NCBI GenBank assembly: GCA_964652715.1
Contig: CAZZBE010000001.1
Location: 1-59,753, forward strand
DNA length: 59,753 nt
Source of the DNA: an uncultured Desulfobacteraceae bacterium
GTDB taxonomy: Bacteria; Desulfobacterota; Desulfobacteria; Desulfobacterales; JAABSP01
Direction of reading: 5' to 3'
Position 1 is the first letter of the stretch. Each line of letters begins with the position of its first letter. Positions 4,527 to 11,956 of the stretch are shown here, piece after piece. The notes below the pieces were generated by a model. It had not been told where the DNA came from. It saw only the letters and a list, made by a program, of their open reading frames with translations, and did not search any database. Both the position numbers and the translations under genes were made by a program.

Positions 4527-5600
4527 TCAGTTGACGGAGTAGATGAGCACGGGCCAGAACTCGTCCACCTTGTCCGGAAACTGAACGCTCAGTTTCAGCA
4601 CGCCGGGAGTGGGGCGGATCGTTCCTCTGTAGCGGTCCCCCCCGGACCTTTCCAGATCCTGCCATCGTCCCTCGTTGTACAGCGTGGCCCCGGAAATGCC
4701 CTCCGCATCCAGGGAAAACGAATAGGACGCGCCGCTTTCCAGGCGGCCGCTCAGGGGGGCTTCTTCGACGCGCATATCCAGATTTTCGTATTCGTAGGCT
4801 TCGGGAAATTCGCTGAAGTTCTTTCGTTTCATCTGCGCTCTCAAATCCTCTCCGGGGATGCCGATATTGTAAAAGGCCCGCAGGAGGGGACGCCCCGGAT
4901 AGGTCTGGGCTTCAAAGTCCGCCAGTTTCATCTTTTTCCCGACCAGCTGCCAGTCCGGATCGGCGGGGAGGTGATCGAACAGAAAATAGGCCGGCGGGGT
5001 GAGGAAATAGATGGCGTCGAATTTTTTTACGAAGCGGCCGCCTTCGATGATCCCCGCCCCCCAGGTGGGATCCATCAATCGCCAGTCGCCGTCGATTTTT
5101 ACCGCGATCCACTCATGATTGACGCCGTCGAAGCGCTTTCCCGGGTAATAGGAGTGGCCTTTGCTGTATCCTCGAATCCGGCGCGCCTCCAGGCCGGACC
5201 GCCGGGCCAATTCATAAAAAAGAGACGCGTAACCGTCGCATAACCCTTTACGGGTTTTAAGCGTTTGTTCGGCCGCGGCCTGGCTGCTTCTCCCCGAGAA
5301 AACCTTCGGCTGCACATCATAGGCGATGTTGTCCCCGATCCATCGATAGATGGCCCGGGCCTTTTCCGCGTCGTTTCGGGCGGGTCGGACCAGGTAGGCG
5401 GCCAGCCGGCCCAGGGATTTTTCGACAGACGGCGGGGCCTCCAGGGCGTGGCGATCAATGGCGGCATAGATGCCGTCGTCCACCGCTACGGCCGCCGGAG
5501 TGGGCGGCGCCGGCGCCCCTTTATCGGGCGCGCCGGCGCACCCCGCTGTCAACACGCCGCACAAACATCCCAACCATACCCATTTCAATAGCGCCTTCAT
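4527..5600 (-). CDS. Transglutaminase-like cysteine-protease-fold lipoprotein
   Basis: Start trimmed to ATG 5600 (MKALLKWVWLGCLCGVLTAGC, a signal peptide plus lipobox). Transglutaminase core: KGLCDGYASLF (Cys), NHEWIAV (His), LMDPTWG (Asp). Confidence 0.8.
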   Translation of the reverse strand: MKALLKWVWLGCLCGVLTAGCAGAPDKGAPAPPTPAAVAVDDGIYAAIDRHALEAPPSVEKSLGRLAAYLVRPARNDAEKARAIYRWIGDNIAYDVQPKVFSGRSSQAAAEQTLKTRKGLCDGYASLFYELARRSGLEARRIRGYSKGHSYYPGKRFDGVNHEWIAVKIDGDWRLMDPTWGAGIIEGGRFVKKFDAIYFLTPPAYFLFDHLPADPDWQLVGKKMKLADFEAQTYPGRPLLRAFYNIGIPGEDLRAQMKRKNFSEFPEAYEYENLDMRVEEAPLSGRLESGASYSFSLDAEGISGATLYNEGRWQDLERSGGDRYRGTIRPTPGVLKLSVQFPDKVDEFWPVLIYSVN

Positions 5601-5605
5601 AACCC

Positions 5606-6247
5606 TTACTCCCGGAATACCAGTCGGCCGCCCATGAGGCCGGCGATGACGGCGAACAGTAACGTAACCAAATGGAGCAGCAGGAAGATCCAGCCGGCGC
5701 CGCCCCCGCTGCTGGCCGCATCGGGGGCGATGATCCACCACATCAGCAAAAACGCCGAAAGCCCCGTCACCAGCACGCCGCAAATGATTTTCGTGAAGAA
5801 CAGGTCGGTTCGGGCCCCTTTATATTTGTATCGCCAGTTCTTGTAGCCGGTATAAAGCACCGCGGGCATGGCCAGGAGGACGATGGCCAGGTTGCAGATG
5901 GCAGCCGTCTCCAGGGTCGGGCATCCAAAAAGAAGAGCGATCAGTACAAACAGGACGGCGATGGGCAAGACGCCGTTGGGAACGTGAACGGTCATGGGAT
6001 GGGCATGGTATTTGACGATCACTTCAGAGAGCTTGTCTTTTTTCCCTTCTGTCTTCGAGACCGGGGCGCCGGTTTCCCGGGATTCAGCCTCTCCGGATTC
6101 AGCCTCCCCGGGTTCCGCCTTTTTCGGTTCCCCTTCGTCCGGCAGTTCGATAAATTTGCTTTTATCCGCACCGCAGACCGGACATTTCTCGGGAGGTTCT
6201 TCCCCCTCATGGATGTAGCCGCATACGATGCATTTCCATTTCTTCAT
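5606..6247 (-). CDS. Rubredoxin-like zinc-ribbon domain fused to a DUF2231-type multi-helix membrane domain
   Basis: Start trimmed to ATG 6247 (GGGAGG RBS). The N-terminus [32 protein letters not shown] is rubredoxin-like (2x CxxC). An acidic linker and four hydrophobic helices follow. The stop is 5 nt from the transglutaminase gene start. Confidence 0.8.
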
Positions 6248-6540: not shown

Positions 6541-6858
6541 TCAACTATGTTGACGGTCCTCCGAATCACCGACTACATCTTTGAGGATTTCGTAATACTG
6601 AGGCCCTGTCATGGGGCAGTCGACCATGTCGTTGAATTGGTCGGCGTTCAGTTTTAAATCCGAGGCGATATACTGGGATTTGCTGTTTTTCATTATTCGT
6701 TGGTGCCCGTTCGGGATTTTTACCTTGGCGACCAGTTTTTCCTCTAAATAAATGTATCCTTTTTCATGCTTGCTTCTTTTGGTCTGGCCTTTTCGAGGTT
6801 TTATTTTGTTGAGGGTCTGTTTTCGAATGTCCTTTTCTTTATAGTCTTTTATCGGCAT
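6541..6858 (-). CDS. Small basic protein, HicA-like (putative toxin) - tentative
   Basis: 105 aa in low-GC DNA, overlapping the upstream gene by 10 nt. A Lys/Arg-rich N-terminus is followed by [47 protein letters not shown]. That pattern resembles the HicA strand-strand-His-helix layout (..vP.H...i....l..Il..l.l....F). Confidence 0.5.
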
Positions 6859-7370
6859 TTCGATATCAGCTTATTGAGAGTTCGTTTCCATGCCTTTGGT
6901 TCTTCGCCAAGTTCGTCGTCATCCATGTCGTTCAGGTCGTCGTAGAGGTCGAGCAACTGCATCTTCAAATCGTTTACGGCTTCGATTTCGTTATCCCCTT
7001 CCCCGTGAAGCGCCAGATCAGGAAACAACGAAATGACTTCGTCATCGTAGATTTTGAGAATAACGGTTATGGGTTGTTTAAGATCGTACTCGCCGGCCGG
7101 TAGACTGAAAATTTGAACGCTGGCGATGGCAGGCTTGTTTTCGGTCTCATTTTTAAGGGCCGTTTTTAATTCATGGATGTCCCATGATAATGTATCTAAA
7201 GTTCTGGCTGCTTTGAGATTTCCAGCAGTTGAAGGCCACTCTTCACGCAGCCAGCGTTCAAACTGTTCTTCAGGTTCCATTGAGAGGGGCGTGGTATCGG
7301 GTTCTGTTGGGTCTTGAAATGACGATAGCGCCCGCTCATTGATAACATTGATATAATCTGTAGAAGCCAT
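6849..7370 (-). CDS. HicB-like (UPF0150-fold) protein with a novel N-terminal extension (putative antitoxin) - tentative
   Basis: 173 aa. The C-terminal ITVILKIYDDEVISLFPDLALHGEGDNEIEAVNDLKMQLLDLYDDL matches the HicB N-domain pattern (..a..Pdl.g..g.G.t.eEAl.n..e.i....e). There is no RHH/HTH DNA-binding tail. The gene lies 8 nt after the upstream gene. Confidence 0.5.
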   Translation of the reverse strand: MASTDYINVINERALSSFQDPTEPDTTPLSMEPEEQFERWLREEWPSTAGNLKAARTLDTLSWDIHELKTALKNETENKPAIASVQIFSLPAGEYDLKQPITVILKIYDDEVISLFPDLALHGEGDNEIEAVNDLKMQLLDLYDDLNDMDDDELGEEPKAWKRTLNKLISKCR

Positions 7371-7378
7371 TTGGTTGC

Positions 7379-8029
7379 CTATTGGTTGATCTTTTCGGAG
7401 ATATTTCTCGCAATATTTTCAGCATCATCCCATTCCTTCAAAAATGCCAAAATTGCGTCGCAAGCATTATCTTCTGAAATATTCTTATGAAAATTAAAGG
7501 AGAATTGGAGTTTCTCAATATCCGGTGTGCCTGGTGCTTTCAAGGTCAGAGGTTTAACATCCATTCGCATTCGGCTGTCCATTATATTTTTGCTGAAATA
7601 ACCCCCGAACCGCGCATCATCATCATCGAATTCGTCGCACCATTTTGATCCTGCGTGGCAGAAAAGCGACTTCCCCAACTTTCCGATGTCGCCGTCCTCC
7701 GGCGTCACATGATAGGTAAAATTCAATCCTGCCGCCGTATATGGCGTATGGGGCAATTCCTCTATAATTTTTCCCACTTTTGAAATCAGTAAATTCTTTG
7801 CTCCATCATATTCCGGAGATATGGAAAATTGAAGTCGATCCGGCAGAAGCGTTAGCCTGAATTGGTTGGATCTGATTTCTATATAGTTTGGAAGCGCTCT
7901 GCCGTCTTTCAGCTCTTCTTCTGTAAAAATATTGTTTTTATACAACCACACGCTGTTGATAAGCGTAAGATTGAATGGGTTCGCAATGATGACGGCATTG
8001 CGATCTGTAGTTTCAATGCAGTTGGCCAT
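7379..8029 (-). CDS. Hypothetical protein, no recognisable domain (first gene of the low-GC cassette)
   Basis: 216-aa ORF starting MANCIETTDRN. It contains an acidic cluster CDEFDDDDARFGGYF. No nucleotide-binding, nuclease or HTH motif that I can recognise. The codon usage is AT-rich, unlike the flanks. Confidence 0.6.
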   Translation of the reverse strand: MANCIETTDRNAVIIANPFNLTLINSVWLYKNNIFTEEELKDGRALPNYIEIRSNQFRLTLLPDRLQFSISPEYDGAKNLLISKVGKIIEELPHTPYTAAGLNFTYHVTPEDGDIGKLGKSLFCHAGSKWCDEFDDDDARFGGYFSKNIMDSRMRMDVKPLTLKAPGTPDIEKLQFSFNFHKNISEDNACDAILAFLKEWDDAENIARNISEKINQ

Positions 8030-8097
8030 GGCTCCCTATGTATGATGCGTACTGGTAGACATTCTATGACATTTTAACGACTGATGTTAGAAGGCTT

Positions 8098-8126
8098 CCT
8101 ATAATGGGCCGCACTGCTTTTGTCAA
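8098..8126 (-). promoter_or_regulatory. Candidate sigma70 promoter of the three-gene cassette
   Basis: On the minus strand: TTGACA (8126-8121), 17 nt, TATAGG (8103-8098), about 70 nt upstream of ATG 8029. Confidence 0.5.
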
Positions 8127-8334
8127 TAGCAAACGCTGAAATAGAGCGTGTCGAAATGGGACGGATAAAATAATGGGGCGATATCCAGCCGGAGGGTGTC
8201 CAAAGCCGCCGACAACTATCAGAGGACCAGGTAAGGCGAACAGCCGTCAGTCATACAGCGTATCCTGCGGCATAAGGTGAATTACGGAAATGAATATCCC
8301 AACAAGGCGAATTCAAGGGATCGTTCGCCGCCGG

Positions 8335-8447
8335 CCGCGCGGGAGTGAACTCCCACGCTGTTTTATCATGTCCCTACAGGATATTTTGAAGCAATTCCAG
8401 TCCCATAGGTACGACGCATAATAGCGTGGGAATTCATTCCCGCGCGG
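8335..8447. repeat. 113-bp element bounded by 25-bp imperfect inverted repeats
   Basis: Left arm 8335-8359 is ccgcgcgggagtgaactcccacgct. The reverse complement of the right arm 8423-8447 is ccgcgcgggaatgaattcccacgct (23/25). Each arm also contains its own small hairpin (gggag-tgaa-ctccc; gggaat-tc-attccc). Confidence 0.9.
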
Positions 8448-8606
8448 TCGAGCGGGATCAAATTTGGTATAATTATTCCAGCAATTCGCCTAAAAACCCG
8501 TACACCAATGATCGCTGTCTCCGGCGGCTTTGCCTGGATGATGCCCGAAAAGGTTTGAGAAATCCATGGAAAGGCGTGATGACGTAATCGATTTCGATTT
8601 GAAAAG

Positions 8607-8683: not shown

Positions 8684-8761
8684 TGGCGTCCCCAAGGGGA
8701 TTTGAACCCCTGTCGCCGGCGTGAAAGGCCGGTGTCCTGGACCTGGCTAGACGATGGGGAC
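8684..8761 (-). tRNA. tRNA-Glu (anticodon UUC), CCA encoded
   Basis: The reverse complement GTCCCCATCGTCTAGCCAGGTCCAGGACACCGGCCTTTCACGCCGGCGACAGGGGTTCAAATCCCCTTGGGGACGCCA has the anticodon arm CCGGC-CTTTCAC-GCCGG. Confidence 0.93.
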
Positions 8762-8770
8762 GCAATCTGT

Positions 8771-8800
8771 TATGGGCCGTGCTGGTATGGGCCGTGCTGG
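8771..8800. repeat. Exact 15-bp tandem duplication of the tRNA-Lys 3' end
   Basis: tatgggccgtgctgg occurs at 8771-8785 and again at 8786-8800. The second copy forms the 3' T-stem and acceptor strand of tRNA-Lys. Confidence 0.95.
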
Positions 8801-8860
8801 GCTCGAACCAGCGACTCTCTGCTTAAAAGGCAGATACTCTACCGACTGAGTTAACGGCCC
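8788..8860 (-). tRNA. tRNA-Lys (anticodon UUU), CCA not encoded
   Basis: The reverse complement GGGCCGTTAACTCAGTCGGTAGAGTATCTGCCTTTTAAGCAGAGAGTCGCTGGTTCGAGCCCAGCACGGCCCA has the anticodon arm TCTGC-CTTTTAA-GCAGA. The next bases after discriminator A are TAC, not CCA. Confidence 0.93.
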
Positions 8861-9442: not shown

Positions 9443-9880
9443 ATGCCGAGTTTTGTAATTAACGAGAAATGCGACGGCTGCAAGGGCGGCGACAAGACCG
9501 CGTGCATGTACATTTGCCCCAACGATTTGATGGTCCTGGAGCCCAACTCCATGAAGGCCTACAATCAGGAGCCCGATCAGTGCTGGGAATGCTTTTCCTG
9601 CGTCAAGATTTGCCCCACCCAGGCCATCGAGGTCAGAGGCTATGCCGACTTCGTGCCGCTGGGAAGCAGCATCATGCCGATGATGGGCACCGAGGACGTG
9701 ATGTGGACCTGCAAGTTCCGCAACGGCACCATCAAACGCTTCAAGTTCCCCATTCGGACCACCCCTGAAGGCCAGGCCAACGCCTATGCGGATCTGAAGG
9801 GCAAGGATCTGGACAGCGAACTGCTCAGCACCGAAGAGGCCGACGGCTACTCGGTTCCGAAACCCCAGGCGACAGCCTAA
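9443..9880 (+). CDS. aprB: Adenylylsulfate (APS) reductase beta subunit
   Basis: 145 aa with an AGGAGG RBS. Ferredoxin-type clusters CDGCKGGDKTACMYICP and CWECFSCVKICP, plus the AprB-type C-terminal tail. It lies directly upstream of aprA. Confidence 0.93.
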   Translation: MPSFVINEKCDGCKGGDKTACMYICPNDLMVLEPNSMKAYNQEPDQCWECFSCVKICPTQAIEVRGYADFVPLGSSIMPMMGTEDVMWTCKFRNGTIKRFKFPIRTTPEGQANAYADLKGKDLDSELLSTEEADGYSVPKPQATA

Positions 9881-9979
9881 GGGAGTTCCGTCACGCCATT
9901 TTTGTTATTTGGACAGGTTCGATCTATGAATAATTTCGGCCTGACGCGCGTCGGGCCACATTGCTAAGGAGGTTGTAGA

Positions 9980-11956
9980 ATGGCATTACCGAACAAACCC
10001 AAGGGTGAAACCAAGGCTGTCAGGGATCCTGAAGTCGAGGAGCGTGAAGTTGATATTCTGATCGTGGGCGGCGGCATGGCGGCTTGCGGCTCCGCGTTCG
10101 AGGTTAAAAAATGGATGTCCGACGACCAGAGCGTGCTGCTGGTGGACAAGGCCGCCATGGAGCGCTCCGGCGCCGTGGCCCAGGGCCTTTCCGCCATCAA
10201 CACCTACATCGGCGACAACACCGCCGACGACTATGTCCGGATGGTGAGAAACGACCTGATGGGCATCGTCCGTGAAGACCTGATCTTCGACCTGGGCTGC
10301 CACGTGGACGATTCCGTCCATCTGTTCGAAGAATGGGGCCTGCCGGTCTGGAAGAAGACCGACGACGGCAAAAACCTGGACGGCAAGAAGGGGCAGAAAC
10401 AGGGCACCCTGAAATCCGGCGCCACCCCGGTCCGCACCGGCAAATGGCAGATCATGATCAACGGCGAATCCTACAAGCGGATCGTGGCGGAAGCCGCCAA
10501 GCTCGCCTTGGGCGACGAAAACATCCTGGAGCGCGTCTTCATCGTCGAACTGCTCCTGGACGCCAAGAACGAAAATCAGATCGCCGGCGCGGTCGGGTTT
10601 TCCGTTCGCGAGAACAAGGTTTACATCATCAAGTGCAAGACCATGATGGTCGCCTGCGGCGGCGCCGTGAACATCTATCAGCCCCGTTCCGTCGGCGAGG
10701 GCAAGGGCCGGGCCTGGTATCCGGTATGGAACTCCGGTTCCACCTACACCCTCTGCATGAAAGTCGGCGCCGAGCTGTCCATGATGGAAAACCGGTTCAC
10801 CCCGGCCCGTTTCAAAGATGGTTACGGCCCGGTCGGCGCATGGTTCCTCCTGTTCAAGGCCAAGGCCCTCAACGGTCTGGGCGAAAACTACGTGGCCAGC
10901 GACGTCGCCAAGCAGGAACTCGAAAATTATGCGCCGTACGGCACCGCCGCCATCACCCCGACCTGTCTGCGGAACCACCTGATGCTGTTCGAGATGAAAG
11001 CGGGCCGCGGCCCCATCATCATGGACACCGTGACCGCGCTGGCCGAAATCGGCAAGACCATGGACAAGAAAGAACTCAAGCACCTTGAGTCCGAGGCCTG
11101 GGAAGACTTCCTCGACATGACCTGCGGCCAGGCCAACCTGTGGTGCGCCACCAACACCGAGCCCGAGAAGAAGAACTCCGAGATCATGCCCACCGAGCCC
11201 TACCTGCTGGGATCTCACTCCGGCTGCTGCGGTCTGTGGTGCTCCGGCCCCGATTACGACTGGGTCCCGGATTCCTACAAATGGGGTCACAACGGCAAAG
11301 TCTACAACCGGATGACCACCGTTGCCGGTCTGTTCAGCTCGGGCGACGGCGTCGGCTGCTCCGGCCACAAGTTCTCCTCCGGCTCCCACGCCGAAGGCCG
11401 CATGGCCGCCAAGGCGATGGTCAAGTTCGTGCGGGACAACAAGGACTTCACGCCGACCATCGCCCAGTCCAAGGAAGAGCTGGTGGACATGGTCTACAAA
11501 CCGGTCCGCGTCTTCCTGGACAACCATGAGTACACCACCGCCATCGACATCAACCCGAACTACCTCAAGCCCGAGGGCATGATGTACCGGCTGATGAAGG
11601 CGACCCACGAGTACGGCGCCGGAACGGCGACCTTCTACCAGACCACCTCCAAGAACCTCGAGATCGTCATGGATCTTCTGGAGACCATGCGGGAAGACTG
11701 CGAGAAGCTGGCCGCCGGAGACCTCCACGAGCTGATGAGAGCCTGGGAGATCTACCATCGCATCTGGACGGTGGAATCCCACCTGCGGCACATCCAGTTC
11801 CGGAAAGAGACCCGGTATCCGGGCTTCTACTATCAGTCCGACTATCCCAATCAGGATGACGCGAACTGGTTCTGCTTCACCAATTCCAAGTTCGATCCCA
11901 AGGCCAAAACCTGGGATACCTTCAAGCGGGATTACGTCAAAATTATCCCCGATTAA
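9980..11956 (+). CDS. aprA: Adenylylsulfate (APS) reductase alpha subunit (FAD flavoprotein)
   Basis: 658 aa with an AAGGAGG RBS. FAD fold ILIVGGGMAACGSAFE. Size and context (aprB upstream, qmoABC downstream) are diagnostic. Confidence 0.93.
   Translation: MALPNKPKGETKAVRDPEVEEREVDILIVGGGMAACGSAFEVKKWMSDDQSVLLVDKAAMERSGAVAQGLSAINTYIGDNTADDYVRMVRNDLMGIVREDLIFDLGCHVDDSVHLFEEWGLPVWKKTDDGKNLDGKKGQKQGTLKSGATPVRTGKWQIMINGESYKRIVAEAAKLALGDENILERVFIVELLLDAKNENQIAGAVGFSVRENKVYIIKCKTMMVACGGAVNIYQPRSVGEGKGRAWYPVWNSGSTYTLCMKVGAELSMMENRFTPARFKDGYGPVGAWFLLFKAKALNGLGENYVASDVAKQELENYAPYGTAAITPTCLRNHLMLFEMKAGRGPIIMDTVTALAEIGKTMDKKELKHLESEAWEDFLDMTCGQANLWCATNTEPEKKNSEIMPTEPYLLGSHSGCCGLWCSGPDYDWVPDSYKWGHNGKVYNRMTTVAGLFSSGDGVGCSGHKFSSGSHAEGRMAAKAMVKFVRDNKDFTPTIAQSKEELVDMVYKPVRVFLDNHEYTTAIDINPNYLKPEGMMYRLMKATHEYGAGTATFYQTTSKNLEIVMDLLETMREDCEKLAAGDLHELMRAWEIYHRIWTVESHLRHIQFRKETRYPGFYYQSDYPNQDDANWFCFTNSKFDPKAKTWDTFKRDYVKIIPD

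What the first reader, a model, noticed from the sequence alone, without database searches (positions are those of the whole stretch)
6541..8126. Low-GC three-gene cassette (216-aa unknown + HicB-like + HicA-like) with its own promoter, docked downstream of a tRNA-Lys/tRNA-Glu pair
**What the sequence shows**
- Three tightly packed minus-strand genes. The gap between the first and second is 8 nt, and the second and third overlap by 10 nt.
- A good TTGACA-17-TATAGG promoter (8126-8098) precedes them.
- The DNA is visibly AT-richer than the flanks. By hand count, 7381-7440 is 22/60 G+C, against 47/60 for 5461-5520.
- The block lies between a core-looking rubredoxin/transglutaminase pair and the 3' side of tRNA-Glu, a classic island position.

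**Inference**
- The last two proteins look like a diverged HicB (no DNA-binding tail, novel N-extension of roughly 80 aa) and a diverged HicA (basic N-extension).
- The promoter-proximal 216-aa protein has no motif I recognise.
- A HicAB-like pair led by a third, unknown component is not a standard two-gene HicAB layout. It could be a tripartite toxin-antitoxin or abortive-infection-type module.
Basis: partly seen in the sequence, partly recalled or inferred. Interest (0 to 1): 0.72.

Follow-up and report, generated by a model that had tools for sequence, protein, structure and literature searches.

The report
HicBA toxin pair led by unknown hub
A foreign, AT-rich three-gene cassette encodes a diverged HicA RNase toxin, a short HicB-type antitoxin and, in front of them, a member of a large uncharacterised protein family that elsewhere heads the same kind of operon with quite different downstream gene pairs, pointing to an undescribed three-part toxin-antitoxin or defence architecture.

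Summary

- **Composition.** The cassette has GC 0.436 against 0.603 for the window. It is the only stretch of that size below 0.50 GC in 59.7 kb.
- **B and C are a HicBA pair.** Direct Pfam, NCBIfam, PADLOC, PDB-profile and Foldseek searches give nothing for the window proteins. Profile-profile comparison does link them to the "Class 8" hicBA modules of Gerdes 2024: C versus Class 8 HicA, 97% probability, E 1e-10; B's C-terminal domain versus the Class 8 HicB fold, 97.6%, E 4e-12. Seven of the ten Class 8 HicAs I scanned hit Pfam HicA_toxin, and the one tabulated in full passes its threshold. The His that aligns with their invariant His is invariant in C's subfamily.
- **A is the new part.** A (216 aa) belongs to a family of more than 1,200 clusters with no Pfam, NCBIfam, PHROG or PADLOC model. 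Its confident predicted structure has no convincing PDB match.
- **A leads a conserved operon layout.** In Desulfobacterota, Planctomycetota and a Polyangiaceae MAG, A is followed by a tightly coupled B wherever enough contig remains, and usually by a C. B and C are swapped between loci: HicBA, GNAT, DUF7689 and several unknown families.

My best reading is a tripartite toxin-antitoxin or defence module in which A is a common hub acting through B. I rate it a new variant of a known kind, of moderately high interest.

The parts
8098..8126 (-). Promoter-like string TTGACA-17 nt-TATAGG, 69 nt upstream of the A start codon. Unverified.
   Evidence: Read directly. Not listed by the consensus scan because the -10 lacks the final T. 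It overlaps a weak 14/18 resemblance to the 3' end of tRNA-Lys (family D4).
7379..8029 (-). Gene A, 216 aa, acidic (pI 5.0). Lead gene and member of a large uncharacterised family, the proposed hub.
   Evidence: ORF. GGGAG lies 5 nt before the ATG. 33 close homologues. 1,234 clusters at E<=1e-3 in the representative library. No Pfam, NCBIfam, PADLOC or PHROG hit. AF2 model pLDDT 93.7 with no convincing PDB match.
7098..7370 (-). Gene B, N-terminal part (about aa 1-91). Poorly conserved acidic extension beginning with an S/T-rich segment (MASTDYINVI). Proposed A-contacting region; this is inference.
   Evidence: Alignment A5. The N-terminus is conserved in the nearest relative P0036, which supports the long start rather than the JGI call at M31. 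N-terminal motif comparison.
6861..7097 (-). Gene B, C-terminal HicB-fold domain (about aa 92-170), very acidic. No DNA-binding model matches it.
   Evidence: hhalign versus Class 8 HicB: 97.6%, E 3.9e-12. Versus canonical HicB: 51%, E 1.5e-4. Relatives hit PHROG 497 'HicB-like' at E 1.6e-3 and 0.02.
6849..7370 (-). Gene B as a whole, 173 aa, pI 4.3. Putative antitoxin or adaptor.
6541..6858 (-). Gene C, 105 aa, basic (pI 9.5). Class 8-type HicA-family protein and putative RNase toxin. The His31 codon lies at 6766-6768.
   Evidence: hhalign versus Class 8 HicA: 97%, E 9.6e-11. AF2 model with an alpha-beta-beta-beta-alpha core plus two helices, pLDDT 87.5. H31 invariant in 24 homologues. Relatives hit Pfam HicA_toxin at E 1e-3 and PHROG 353 'toxin' at E 1e-4.
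8684..8860 (-). tRNA-Lys(UUU) and tRNA-Glu(UUC) pair upstream of the cassette. Context only.
   Evidence: ARAGORN. Rfam tRNA hits.

Best explanation
The block is a horizontally acquired three-gene toxin-antitoxin-type module, most likely serving in phage or mobile-element defence or as an addiction module.

**C.** A HicA-family RNase toxin of the 'Class 8' kind: a dsRBD-like core that keeps the conserved His, plus two extra C-terminal helices.

**B.** Its antitoxin. The acidic C-terminal HicB-fold domain binds and neutralises C. B has no recognisable DNA-binding domain and carries an N-terminal extension of about 90 aa.

**A.** An acidic alpha/beta protein with no conserved catalytic-looking residue set. 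It belongs to a large uncharacterised family and is the constant subunit of the architecture. It is translationally coupled to B, and I propose that it binds B's N-terminal tail. Through that contact it would control the stability or activity of the antitoxin. It could act as a dedicated stabiliser, analogous to SecB in TAC systems, or as the sensor whose engagement releases the toxin.

**What is shown**
- The homology of B and C to HicB and HicA.
- The foreign composition of the cassette.
- Conservation of the A-B-C order.
- Swapping of the B-C pair behind a conserved A.

**What is inferred**
- Toxicity of C and neutralisation by B.
- A-B contact.
- The direction in which A acts.
For: **B-C is a HicBA pair**
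- Profile-profile matches to Class 8 HicA and HicB. Seven of ten Class 8 HicAs hit Pfam HicA_toxin.
- Independent sub-threshold hits of subtype-2 relatives to HicA_toxin, PHROG 'toxin' and PHROG 'HicB-like'. A subtype-1-only HMM finds subtype 2 at E 1e-8.
- His31 is invariant and aligns with the invariant His of Class 8 HicA.
- The charges fit a toxin-antitoxin pair: C pI 9.5, B pI 4.3.

**A belongs to the module**
- A+B+C recurs in different genomic contexts, next to HigB/HTH, MNT/HepT and methyltransferase/helicase genes.
- In about 27 distinct loci, every A with enough downstream sequence is followed by a same-strand B, and usually by a C.
- The A and B reading frames overlap by 4 nt in 10 of 22 loci.
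- A stays 30-50% identical while B and C fall into many unrelated BLAST clusters: HicA-like, a 236-275-aa family, GNAT, DUF7689 and others.
- An in-frame natural A~HicB-fold fusion exists (P0025, L014).
- Otherwise unrelated B proteins share an S/T-rich N-terminal segment, in 12 of 19 against 15% of background ORFs. This motif was defined post hoc.

**Foreign origin.** GC and GC3.

**Precedent.** A constant third protein serves several TA families in TAC, including HicAB (PMC5105189).
Against: - Nothing here shows that C is toxic, that B neutralises it, or that A contacts B. No complex prediction could be run.
- Foldseek did not recover any HicA structure for the C model.
- The window's own B and C hit no curated profile directly.
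- Subtype-2 C proteins lack the His. Catalysis may therefore differ, or some members may be inactive.
- A has no recognisable chaperone, sensor or enzyme signature.
- The A~HicB fusion looks like a recent deletion in one Desulfobacula population and may be a decaying allele.
- In this window the cassette is not in a defence island, and it sits at the same site in all 6 contigs shown, of 18 carrying the identical A protein.
- No integrase or att repeats were found.
Confidence: 0.6

Rival explanations
1. B-C is an ordinary two-gene hicBA module, and A is an unrelated neighbour that happens to sit upstream. It would be a hitch-hiking gene of separate function.
For: A has no detectable link to any TA component. 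Two-gene hicBA modules lacking a DNA-binding domain are already described as Classes 7 and 8 (PMC10865869).
Against: The A-B-C order and tight coupling are conserved across phyla and contexts. They persist even when B and C are replaced by unrelated proteins. All three genes share the same foreign composition. A is fused in frame to the HicB fold in L014/P0025.
Confidence: 0.07
2. A is the transcriptional regulator of the operon. It would supply the DNA-binding function that this short HicB lacks, as omega does in omega-epsilon-zeta or PaaR2 in paaR2-paaA2-parE2.
For: A is the promoter-proximal gene, and no DNA-binding model matches B. First-gene regulators are the usual third component of older tripartite TA systems; this rests on established knowledge and was not tested here.
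Against: A is acidic, with pI 5.0 and net charge about -9. It has no HTH or RHH hit in Pfam or NCBIfam. The model is a two-lobed beta-sheet/helix protein whose best, poor PDB matches are AdoMetDC-like and START-like folds rather than DNA binders. No conserved inverted repeat lies upstream of A in eight related loci.
Confidence: 0.1
3. A is itself an effector or second toxin, or an enzyme acting on a cellular target. B-C would then be an accessory or regulatory layer.
For: A is the most conserved component, and invariant polar residues exist (N20, N103, S146, N179). The fold has no convincing PDB counterpart, so an unrecognised activity cannot be excluded.
Against: The invariant positions are dominated by Gly, Pro, Phe, Trp and Asn, with no His/Asp/Glu/Cys/Lys set typical of a catalytic centre. 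The variable third genes include recognisable toxin-type proteins, HicA and GNAT, which fits C as the effector. Fusion of A to the antitoxin fold fits a regulatory domain better than a toxin.
Confidence: 0.1
4. The cassette is not a conflict system at all. It would be a domesticated RNA-processing or stress module fixed in this lineage, with the low GC as a relic.
For: It sits at the same chromosomal site, between housekeeping genes, in all 6 contigs shown. Those come from several stromatolite and microbial-mat samples, and 18 contigs in all carry the identical A protein. No mobility genes or att repeats flank it.
Against: Homologous cassettes lie in unrelated contexts beside other TA and restriction-type genes. 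One copy is visibly decayed (L027). The partner genes are shuffled. GC3 is 0.2-0.35 below that of the neighbours. These are all traits of mobile conflict modules.
Confidence: 0.08

Closest known systems
Class 8 hicBA modules (Gerdes 2024, mBio, PMC10865869; Thermococcus, Archaeoglobus, Methanoregula, Syntrophomonas)
   Same: - hicB-then-hicA order with close linkage or overlap.
- A HicA of about 95 aa with a dsRBD core plus two extra C-terminal helices and the FxDFVDCP motif.
- A HicB-fold domain at the C-terminus of the antitoxin.
- No recognisable DNA-binding domain.
- Homology shown by hhalign.
   Different: Class 8 HicB is one protein of 331-376 aa, with an unknown N-terminal domain and an OB-like middle domain. 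Here HicB is 173 aa and a separate 216-aa gene precedes it. The A-family profile shows no similarity to the Class 8 HicB N-terminal or middle domains. This module comes from bacteria, mainly Desulfobacterota, not archaea.
TAC (toxin-antitoxin-chaperone) systems with SecB-like chaperones, including the HicAB-type TAC of Methylomonas methanica (Bordes et al. 2016, PMC5105189)
   Same: - A three-gene operon.
- A constant third protein associated with several unrelated TA families.
- An antitoxin carrying a variable terminal extension.
- A third protein that is acidic.
   Different: - A is not SecB-like: no Pfam hit of any kind and no SecB among the 50 Foldseek matches listed.
- The antitoxin extension is N-terminal, not C-terminal.
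- A is encoded first, not last.
- No chaperone function was tested.
Canonical two-gene HicAB (e.g. E. coli K-12 hicAB; PDB 6HPB)
   Same: The toxin fold family and conserved His; the HicB N-domain-type fold that binds the toxin.
   Different: - Reversed gene order.
- No HTH or RHH domain in HicB.
- A longer HicA.
- An extra lead gene.
- Similarity to canonical HicA is undetectable directly, and to canonical HicB only moderate.
Hyper-promiscuous antitoxin hubs such as the Panacea (PanA) domain. This is recalled from the literature, not tested here.
   Same: One conserved component is paired with many unrelated toxin families.
   Different: PanA is a domain inside the antitoxin of two-gene systems. 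Here the conserved component is a separate protein, and a variable adaptor (B) stands between it and the toxin.

Membership tests
HicA toxin family (Pfam PF07927) | Significant match of the protein itself to the HicA_toxin profile | tested here: not met
   Window C has no Pfam hit at E<=1. Only divergent relatives give sub-threshold hits, at 19.5 bits against a 27-bit cut-off.
HicA toxin family (Pfam PF07927) | Homology to bona fide HicA proteins by profile-profile comparison | tested here: met
   The C-family profile matches the Class 8 HicA alignment at 97% probability, E 9.6e-11, over 85 columns. Seven of the ten Class 8 sequences hit PF07927, best E 4e-8; the T. litoralis member scores 30.8 bits against the 27-bit cut-off. 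Comparison with E. coli-type HicAs found nothing.
HicA toxin family (Pfam PF07927) | dsRBD-like alpha-beta-beta-beta-alpha fold | tested here: inconclusive
   The AF2 model (pLDDT 87.5) has elements H8-19, E22-24, E32-38, E41-48 and H58-67, followed by two helices. Foldseek against PDB and BFVD gave no significant match, only weak dsRBD and RNase III hits at E>1.
HicA toxin family (Pfam PF07927) | Conserved His at the start of the sheet. Its catalytic role is recalled from the HicA literature, not tested here. | tested here: met
   H31 is invariant in 24 subtype-1 homologues. It aligns with the invariant His of Class 8 HicA. It is absent from subtype-2 relatives.
HicA toxin family (Pfam PF07927) | RNase activity and growth inhibition neutralised by the partner | not testable with these tools
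   Requires expression and rescue assays.
HicB antitoxin family | HicB-fold (partial RNase H-like) toxin-binding domain | tested here: met
   B residues 92-170 match the Class 8 HicB C-terminal HicB fold at 97.6%, E 3.9e-12. B residues 97-163 match canonical HicB residues 1-65 at 51%, E 1.5e-4. There is no direct Pfam hit and no PDB-sequence hit. No structure was predicted for B.
HicB antitoxin family | C-terminal HTH or RHH (or N-terminal Phd/YefM) DNA-binding domain, as in Classes 3-6 | tested here: not met
   No DNA-binding model in Pfam or NCBIfam matches B. B ends about three residues after the HicB-fold match. The paper describes the same absence for Classes 7 and 8.
Class 8 hicBA (Gerdes 2024) | HicA of about 95 aa with two additional C-terminal helices; hicB upstream and closely linked | tested here: met
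   C is 105 aa with extra helices H72-80 and H85-104. The FND(M/L)(V/I)DCP motif aligns with FKDFVDCP. B and C overlap by 10 nt.
Class 8 hicBA (Gerdes 2024) | Very long three-domain HicB (331-376 aa) | tested here: not met
   B is 173 aa. The A-family profile shows no similarity to the N-terminal or middle domains of Class 8 HicB (<1% probability). In one search the only match came from the fused tail of P0025.
TAC (toxin-antitoxin-chaperone) | SecB-like chaperone as the third component | tested here: not met
   Neither A nor 26 relatives give any meaningful Pfam hit. No SecB appears among the 50 Foldseek matches listed; the best are AdoMetDC at TM 0.34.
TAC (toxin-antitoxin-chaperone) | Antitoxin carries a chaperone-addiction extension that the third protein binds | tested here: inconclusive
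   B has an N-terminal extension of about 90 aa that is poorly conserved. An S/T-rich N-terminal segment recurs among unrelated B proteins; it was defined post hoc. Binding was not tested.
   No NCBIfam hit for A at E<=1. Among 26 diverse relatives scanned at E<=0.1, only two unrelated single-member hits near the limit appeared.
Catalogued anti-phage defence systems (PADLOC-DB v2.0.0) | Match of any component to a PADLOC model | tested here: not met
   A and B have no hit. C gives only a Cas5b hit at E 0.0024, which I judge to be noise. Ten proteins from distant A-led loci give none, apart from a weak PDC-M32A hit in one B.

The most novel reading that the evidence does not exclude
The 216-aa protein A defines a large, unrecognised family: more than 1,200 clusters at 50% identity, no curated model, and no convincing structural match in the PDB. 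In this reading it is the constant 'hub' of a new class of tripartite toxin-antitoxin or defence operons. A hypervariable adaptor-antitoxin (B) would couple A to interchangeable effectors, including HicA, GNAT, DUF7689 and at least five families without any annotation. A would sense a trigger or stabilise B through a short N-terminal peptide of B. This mechanism and protein are unrelated to the SecB-based TAC systems.
Probability: 0.45. Interest if true: 0.78.

Novelty: new variant of a known kind. Interest (0 to 1): 0.63.

Why it matters
**What is new.** HicAB modules are well known, but none of the 14 genetic contexts catalogued for HicA domains in 2024 includes a conserved third gene of this kind.

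**A handle on dark matter.** If A is a required partner, it gives a way into a large block of unannotated genes: over a thousand A clusters, each followed by two mostly unannotated genes. It would also be a second, independent example, after SecB-based TAC, of one constant protein servicing many toxin-antitoxin families.

**Practical uses.**
- A could serve as a genomic beacon for finding new toxins and antitoxins.
- It would show how HicBA pairs lacking a DNA-binding domain are controlled.
- It would add a candidate defence architecture in Desulfobacterota and Planctomycetota, two phyla with few characterised systems.
- One carrier record, GCA_002197845.1, which I recall to be the cultured planctomycete Fimbriiglobus ruber SP5, could make experiments feasible.

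Tried and rejected
**Direct family scans**
- Pfam, NCBIfam, PADLOC and PHROGs on A, B and C gave nothing usable for the window proteins.

**PDB and structure searches**
- PDB sequence-profile searches with the C, A and B alignments found no HicA or HicB and nothing meaningful.
- Foldseek of the A model against PDB gave AdoMetDC/prozyme at best, with E 4e-4 but TM 0.34 and rmsd 17 Å. I do not accept this as a fold assignment.
- Foldseek of the C model against PDB and BFVD gave no significant match.

**Comparisons with canonical HicA**
- hhalign of the C profile against E. coli HicA alone, and against a 7-sequence alignment of plasmid-borne HicAs, found nothing.
- Only the subtype-2 sub-alignment gave a weak match (33%).

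**Is A the detached N-terminus of long Class 8 HicB?** No similarity was found.

**Synteny and empty-site test.** A metagenome scan with the rubredoxin protein recovered only rubredoxin-domain matches and no syntenic relatives.

**att-site search**
- The 15-nt 3' end of tRNA-Lys has no copy on the far side of the cassette.
- The 14/18 resemblance at 8099-8116 lies upstream of the cassette and is probably chance.

**The 8320-8460 hairpin.** I considered that it might belong to the module. It does not occur upstream of A in eight related loci.

**Literature.** Searches for a three-gene HicA system and for DUF7689 found nothing describing A.
Full report
**1. The observation**

All stated features are present at the stated coordinates.
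- The minus strand carries three ORFs: A (7379-8029, 216 aa), B (6849-7370, 173 aa) and C (6541-6858, 105 aa).
- The A-B gap is 8 nt and the B-C overlap is 10 nt.
- The string TTGACA-17-TATAGG lies at 8126-8098. It is only a plausible promoter. Its -10 lacks the conserved final T, so the consensus scan does not list it, and promoter-like sites are not enriched here.
- Both GC hand counts are exact.

The composition is strongly atypical.
- The cassette has GC 0.436; the window has 0.603.
- Same-size windows have sd 0.043, and only 0.26% of them are as low. Every window below 0.50 overlaps this locus.
- GC3 is 0.46-0.52 in the cassette, against 0.71-0.85 in the neighbouring rubredoxin/DUF2231, transglutaminase and aprBA genes.

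The position is as described. tRNA-Lys and tRNA-Glu lie on the same strand, with the 3' end of tRNA-Glu 654 nt upstream of A. Foreign origin is therefore well supported. However, there is no integrase and no direct repeat bounding the cassette.

The longer start of B is preferred over the JGI call at Met31. The first 30 residues are conserved in the nearest homologue, and relatives start B at or overlapping the A stop.

**2. What B and C are**

Direct searches fail.
- The window proteins have no Pfam, NCBIfam, PADLOC or PHROG match.
- Profile searches of PDB sequences give nothing.
- Foldseek of a good C model (pLDDT 87.5) finds nothing significant in PDB or BFVD. Only weak dsRBD and RNase III hits appear.

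Weak but consistent signals came from a divergent sub-family of the same cassette.
- Subtype 2 (for example L001 and L006) is 21-23% identical to C (L001, L005).
- A profile built only from subtype 1 detects it at E about 1e-8.
- Its C proteins hit Pfam HicA_toxin (E 1e-3, below threshold) and PHROG 353 'toxin' (E 1e-4).
- Its B proteins hit PHROG 497 'HicB-like' (E 1.6e-3).

The decisive link came from the literature. Gerdes (2024, PMC10865869) describes 'Class 8' hicBA loci.
- They occur in Euryarchaeota and Syntrophomonas.
- Their HicA is about 95 aa, with a dsRBD plus two extra C-terminal helices.
- Their HicB ends in a HicB fold and has no DNA-binding domain.

I built alignments from the sequences in that paper's Table S1 and compared them with the cassette families.
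- The C-family profile matches Class 8 HicA at 97% probability, E 9.6e-11, over 85 columns.
- The match includes the FxD(F/L/M)(V/I)DCP motif and aligns C's His31 with the invariant His of Class 8 HicA.
- B residues 92-170 match the Class 8 HicB fold at 97.6%, E 3.9e-12.
- Seven of the ten Class 8 HicAs hit Pfam HicA_toxin, best E 4e-8. The T. litoralis member scores 30.8 bits against the 27-bit threshold.
- B also aligns in register with the N-domain of canonical plasmid and E. coli HicBs (51%, E 1.5e-4).
- His31 is invariant in the 24 subtype-1 homologues.
- C is basic (pI 9.5) and B is very acidic (pI 4.3).

I conclude that B-C is a HicBA-type toxin-antitoxin pair of the Class 8 lineage. 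Its HicB is cut down to an N-terminal extension of about 90 aa plus the HicB fold. Toxicity and neutralisation are inferred, not shown.

**3. What A is, and why it belongs**

A has no match in any curated library, and neither do 26 diverse relatives.

The family is large.
- The word-based search found 33 homologues, nearly all about 217 aa. Those that carry a name come from Deltaproteobacteria, Proteobacteria or Pseudomonadota MAGs.
- An exhaustive profile search found 1,234 clusters at 50% identity with E<=1e-3, of which 324 have E<=1e-30. Nearly all of the 150 best listed are 205-230 aa.

The structure gives no fold assignment.
- The AF2 model is confident (pLDDT 93.7, pTM 0.89). It shows two beta-sheet/helix halves.
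- Foldseek against PDB gives no convincing match. The best hit is AdoMetDC/prozyme, with TM 0.34 and rmsd about 17 Å.

The sequence gives no sign of catalysis. Invariant positions are mostly Gly, Pro, Phe, Trp and Asn, with no obvious catalytic set. A is acidic (pI 5.0).

The context is the informative part.
- In three long Desulfobacterota contigs the same A-B-C trio sits in unrelated neighbourhoods. These lie beside HigB/HTH, MNT/HepT plus an integrase fragment, and a methyltransferase/helicase pair.
- A scan of species-representative genomes found A in Desulfobacterales and Desulfobacula, in many Planctomycetota and in a Polyangiaceae MAG.
- Across about 27 distinct loci, every A with enough downstream sequence is followed by a same-strand gene B of 129-300 aa. 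In 10 of 22 loci the two reading frames overlap by 4 nt. A third gene usually follows.

A stays 30-50% identical across these loci, but B and C do not. By BLAST, the third genes fall into these groups:
- a HicA-like cluster (9 loci, all those named being Desulfobacterota);
- a 236-275-aa family in six Planctomycetota loci;
- a family of about 180 aa shared by L053 and, by my reading of the sequences rather than a run comparison, L058;
- a DUF7689 protein;
- a GNAT acetyltransferase;
- several further singletons without annotation.

The B proteins are likewise unrelated to each other, apart from a recurring S/T-rich N-terminal segment (MASTDYINVI, MSTLSTDRTTYLV, MNRFSTDGLVVY and similar). It appears in 12 of 19 B proteins against 15% of background ORFs. 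I defined this motif post hoc, so it is only suggestive.

One Desulfobacula population carries an in-frame fusion (P0025, L014). It joins A, minus its last helices, to the HicB fold of B, minus B's N-terminal region, and an intact C follows.

The A-family profile is not detectably related to the N-terminal or middle domains of the long Class 8 HicBs. In one search the only match came from the fused tail of P0025.

**4. Mechanism**

The best-supported reading is a tripartite module.
- C is the HicA RNase toxin.
- B is an adaptor-antitoxin whose HicB fold sequesters C.
- A is the constant subunit, acting through B, probably on B's N-terminal tail.

The closest functional precedent is TAC. There a SecB-like chaperone serves HigBA, MqsRA and HicAB pairs through variable extensions on the antitoxins (PMC5105189). 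A is not SecB-like, the extension is at the other end of the antitoxin, and the gene order differs. This is therefore an analogy, not membership.

I cannot tell whether A stabilises B, as a chaperone would, or senses a trigger and releases C. A regulator role like that of omega or PaaR2 is disfavoured by A's acidity and its lack of any DNA-binding signature. An unrelated-neighbour role is disfavoured by the conserved coupling across swapped partners.

**5. Novelty and limits**

The HicBA part is a new member of a described class. The A-led architecture is not among the 14 HicA contexts catalogued in 2024, is not in PADLOC v2, and did not turn up in four full-text literature searches. I rate the whole as a new variant of a known kind, the tripartite toxin-antitoxin system.

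Several limits apply.
- The empty-site synteny test failed for lack of close relatives.
- In this organism the cassette sits at one site between housekeeping genes in all 6 contigs shown, which come from several stromatolite and microbial-mat metagenomes. Eighteen contigs in all carry the identical A protein.
- Subtype-2 C proteins lack the conserved His.

Noticed in passing
window 8771-8800 (minus strand): The last 15 nt of tRNA-Lys (CCAGCACGGCCCATA) are repeated perfectly in tandem, immediately after the gene and just before tRNA-Glu. This could be an integration or excision scar at the tRNA-Lys 3' end. No third copy flanks the cassette.
   Followed up: partly
window 8320-8460: A long imperfect palindrome lies between tRNA-Glu and the cassette promoter. 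Its arms are 8332-8381 and 8401-8450. It folds at -75.7 kcal/mol with z = -8.1. Both arms give sub-threshold Rfam hits to the Acido-Lenti-1 RNA motif: 30.5 and 23.9 bits against a gathering score of 37. It is unique in the window and absent upstream of A in eight related loci. Its function is unknown; it could be an insulator or terminator after the tRNA operon, or a small mobile element.
   Followed up: partly
L014 433-1278 (and protein P0025): A natural in-frame fusion of A (lacking its last helices) to the HicB-fold domain of B (lacking B's N-terminal region), followed by an intact 90-aa C. It yields a two-gene 'long HicB + HicA' layout reminiscent of Class 8.
   Followed up: partly
L001 7123-7395, L005 7123-7395, L006 9217-9585 and similar: Subtype-2 C proteins of the same cassette family lack the conserved His: GKEFNG replaces RSKHxKG, and IPKGR replaces IPNxH. 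They are nevertheless the members most similar to the Pfam HicA profile. They may use different catalytic residues or be non-catalytic.
   Followed up: no
L027 8001-8243, 9972-10112, 10665-11081: An apparently decayed copy of the cassette in a Desulfotignum MAG. An 80-aa N-terminal fragment of A and a second A fragment lie about 1.7 kb apart, and two short C-like fragments follow.
   Followed up: no
L018, L019, L020, L026, L028, L017 (third gene after A): A recurrent 236-275-aa protein family has conserved motifs (PLxQGDIL, SRPCV, DRFYLGQ, RDLHxRI). It occupies the 'toxin' slot in Planctomycetota versions of the operon and has no Pfam or PADLOC match. It is a candidate new effector.
   Followed up: partly
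L057, L058 (IMG/VR contigs); L053 (GCA_002197845.1): A-family operons also occur on two contigs of the viral collection. L058 carries the 295-aa B + 183-aa C variant. That variant resembles the pair in L053, from record GCA_002197845.1, which I recall to be the cultured planctomycete Fimbriiglobus ruber SP5. Whether the viral contigs are true prophages was not checked.
   Followed up: no
window 6075-6119: Three tandem 15-nt repeats lie inside the rubredoxin/DUF2231 gene. They encode a repeated acidic (P)GEAES-type linker between the rubredoxin and membrane domains.
   Followed up: no
window 9443-11956: aprB and aprA (adenylylsulfate reductase) lie divergently just beyond the tRNA pair. This marks the host as a sulfate reducer. 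The same arrangement is present in all 6 contigs shown, which come from stromatolite and microbial-mat metagenomes.
   Followed up: no
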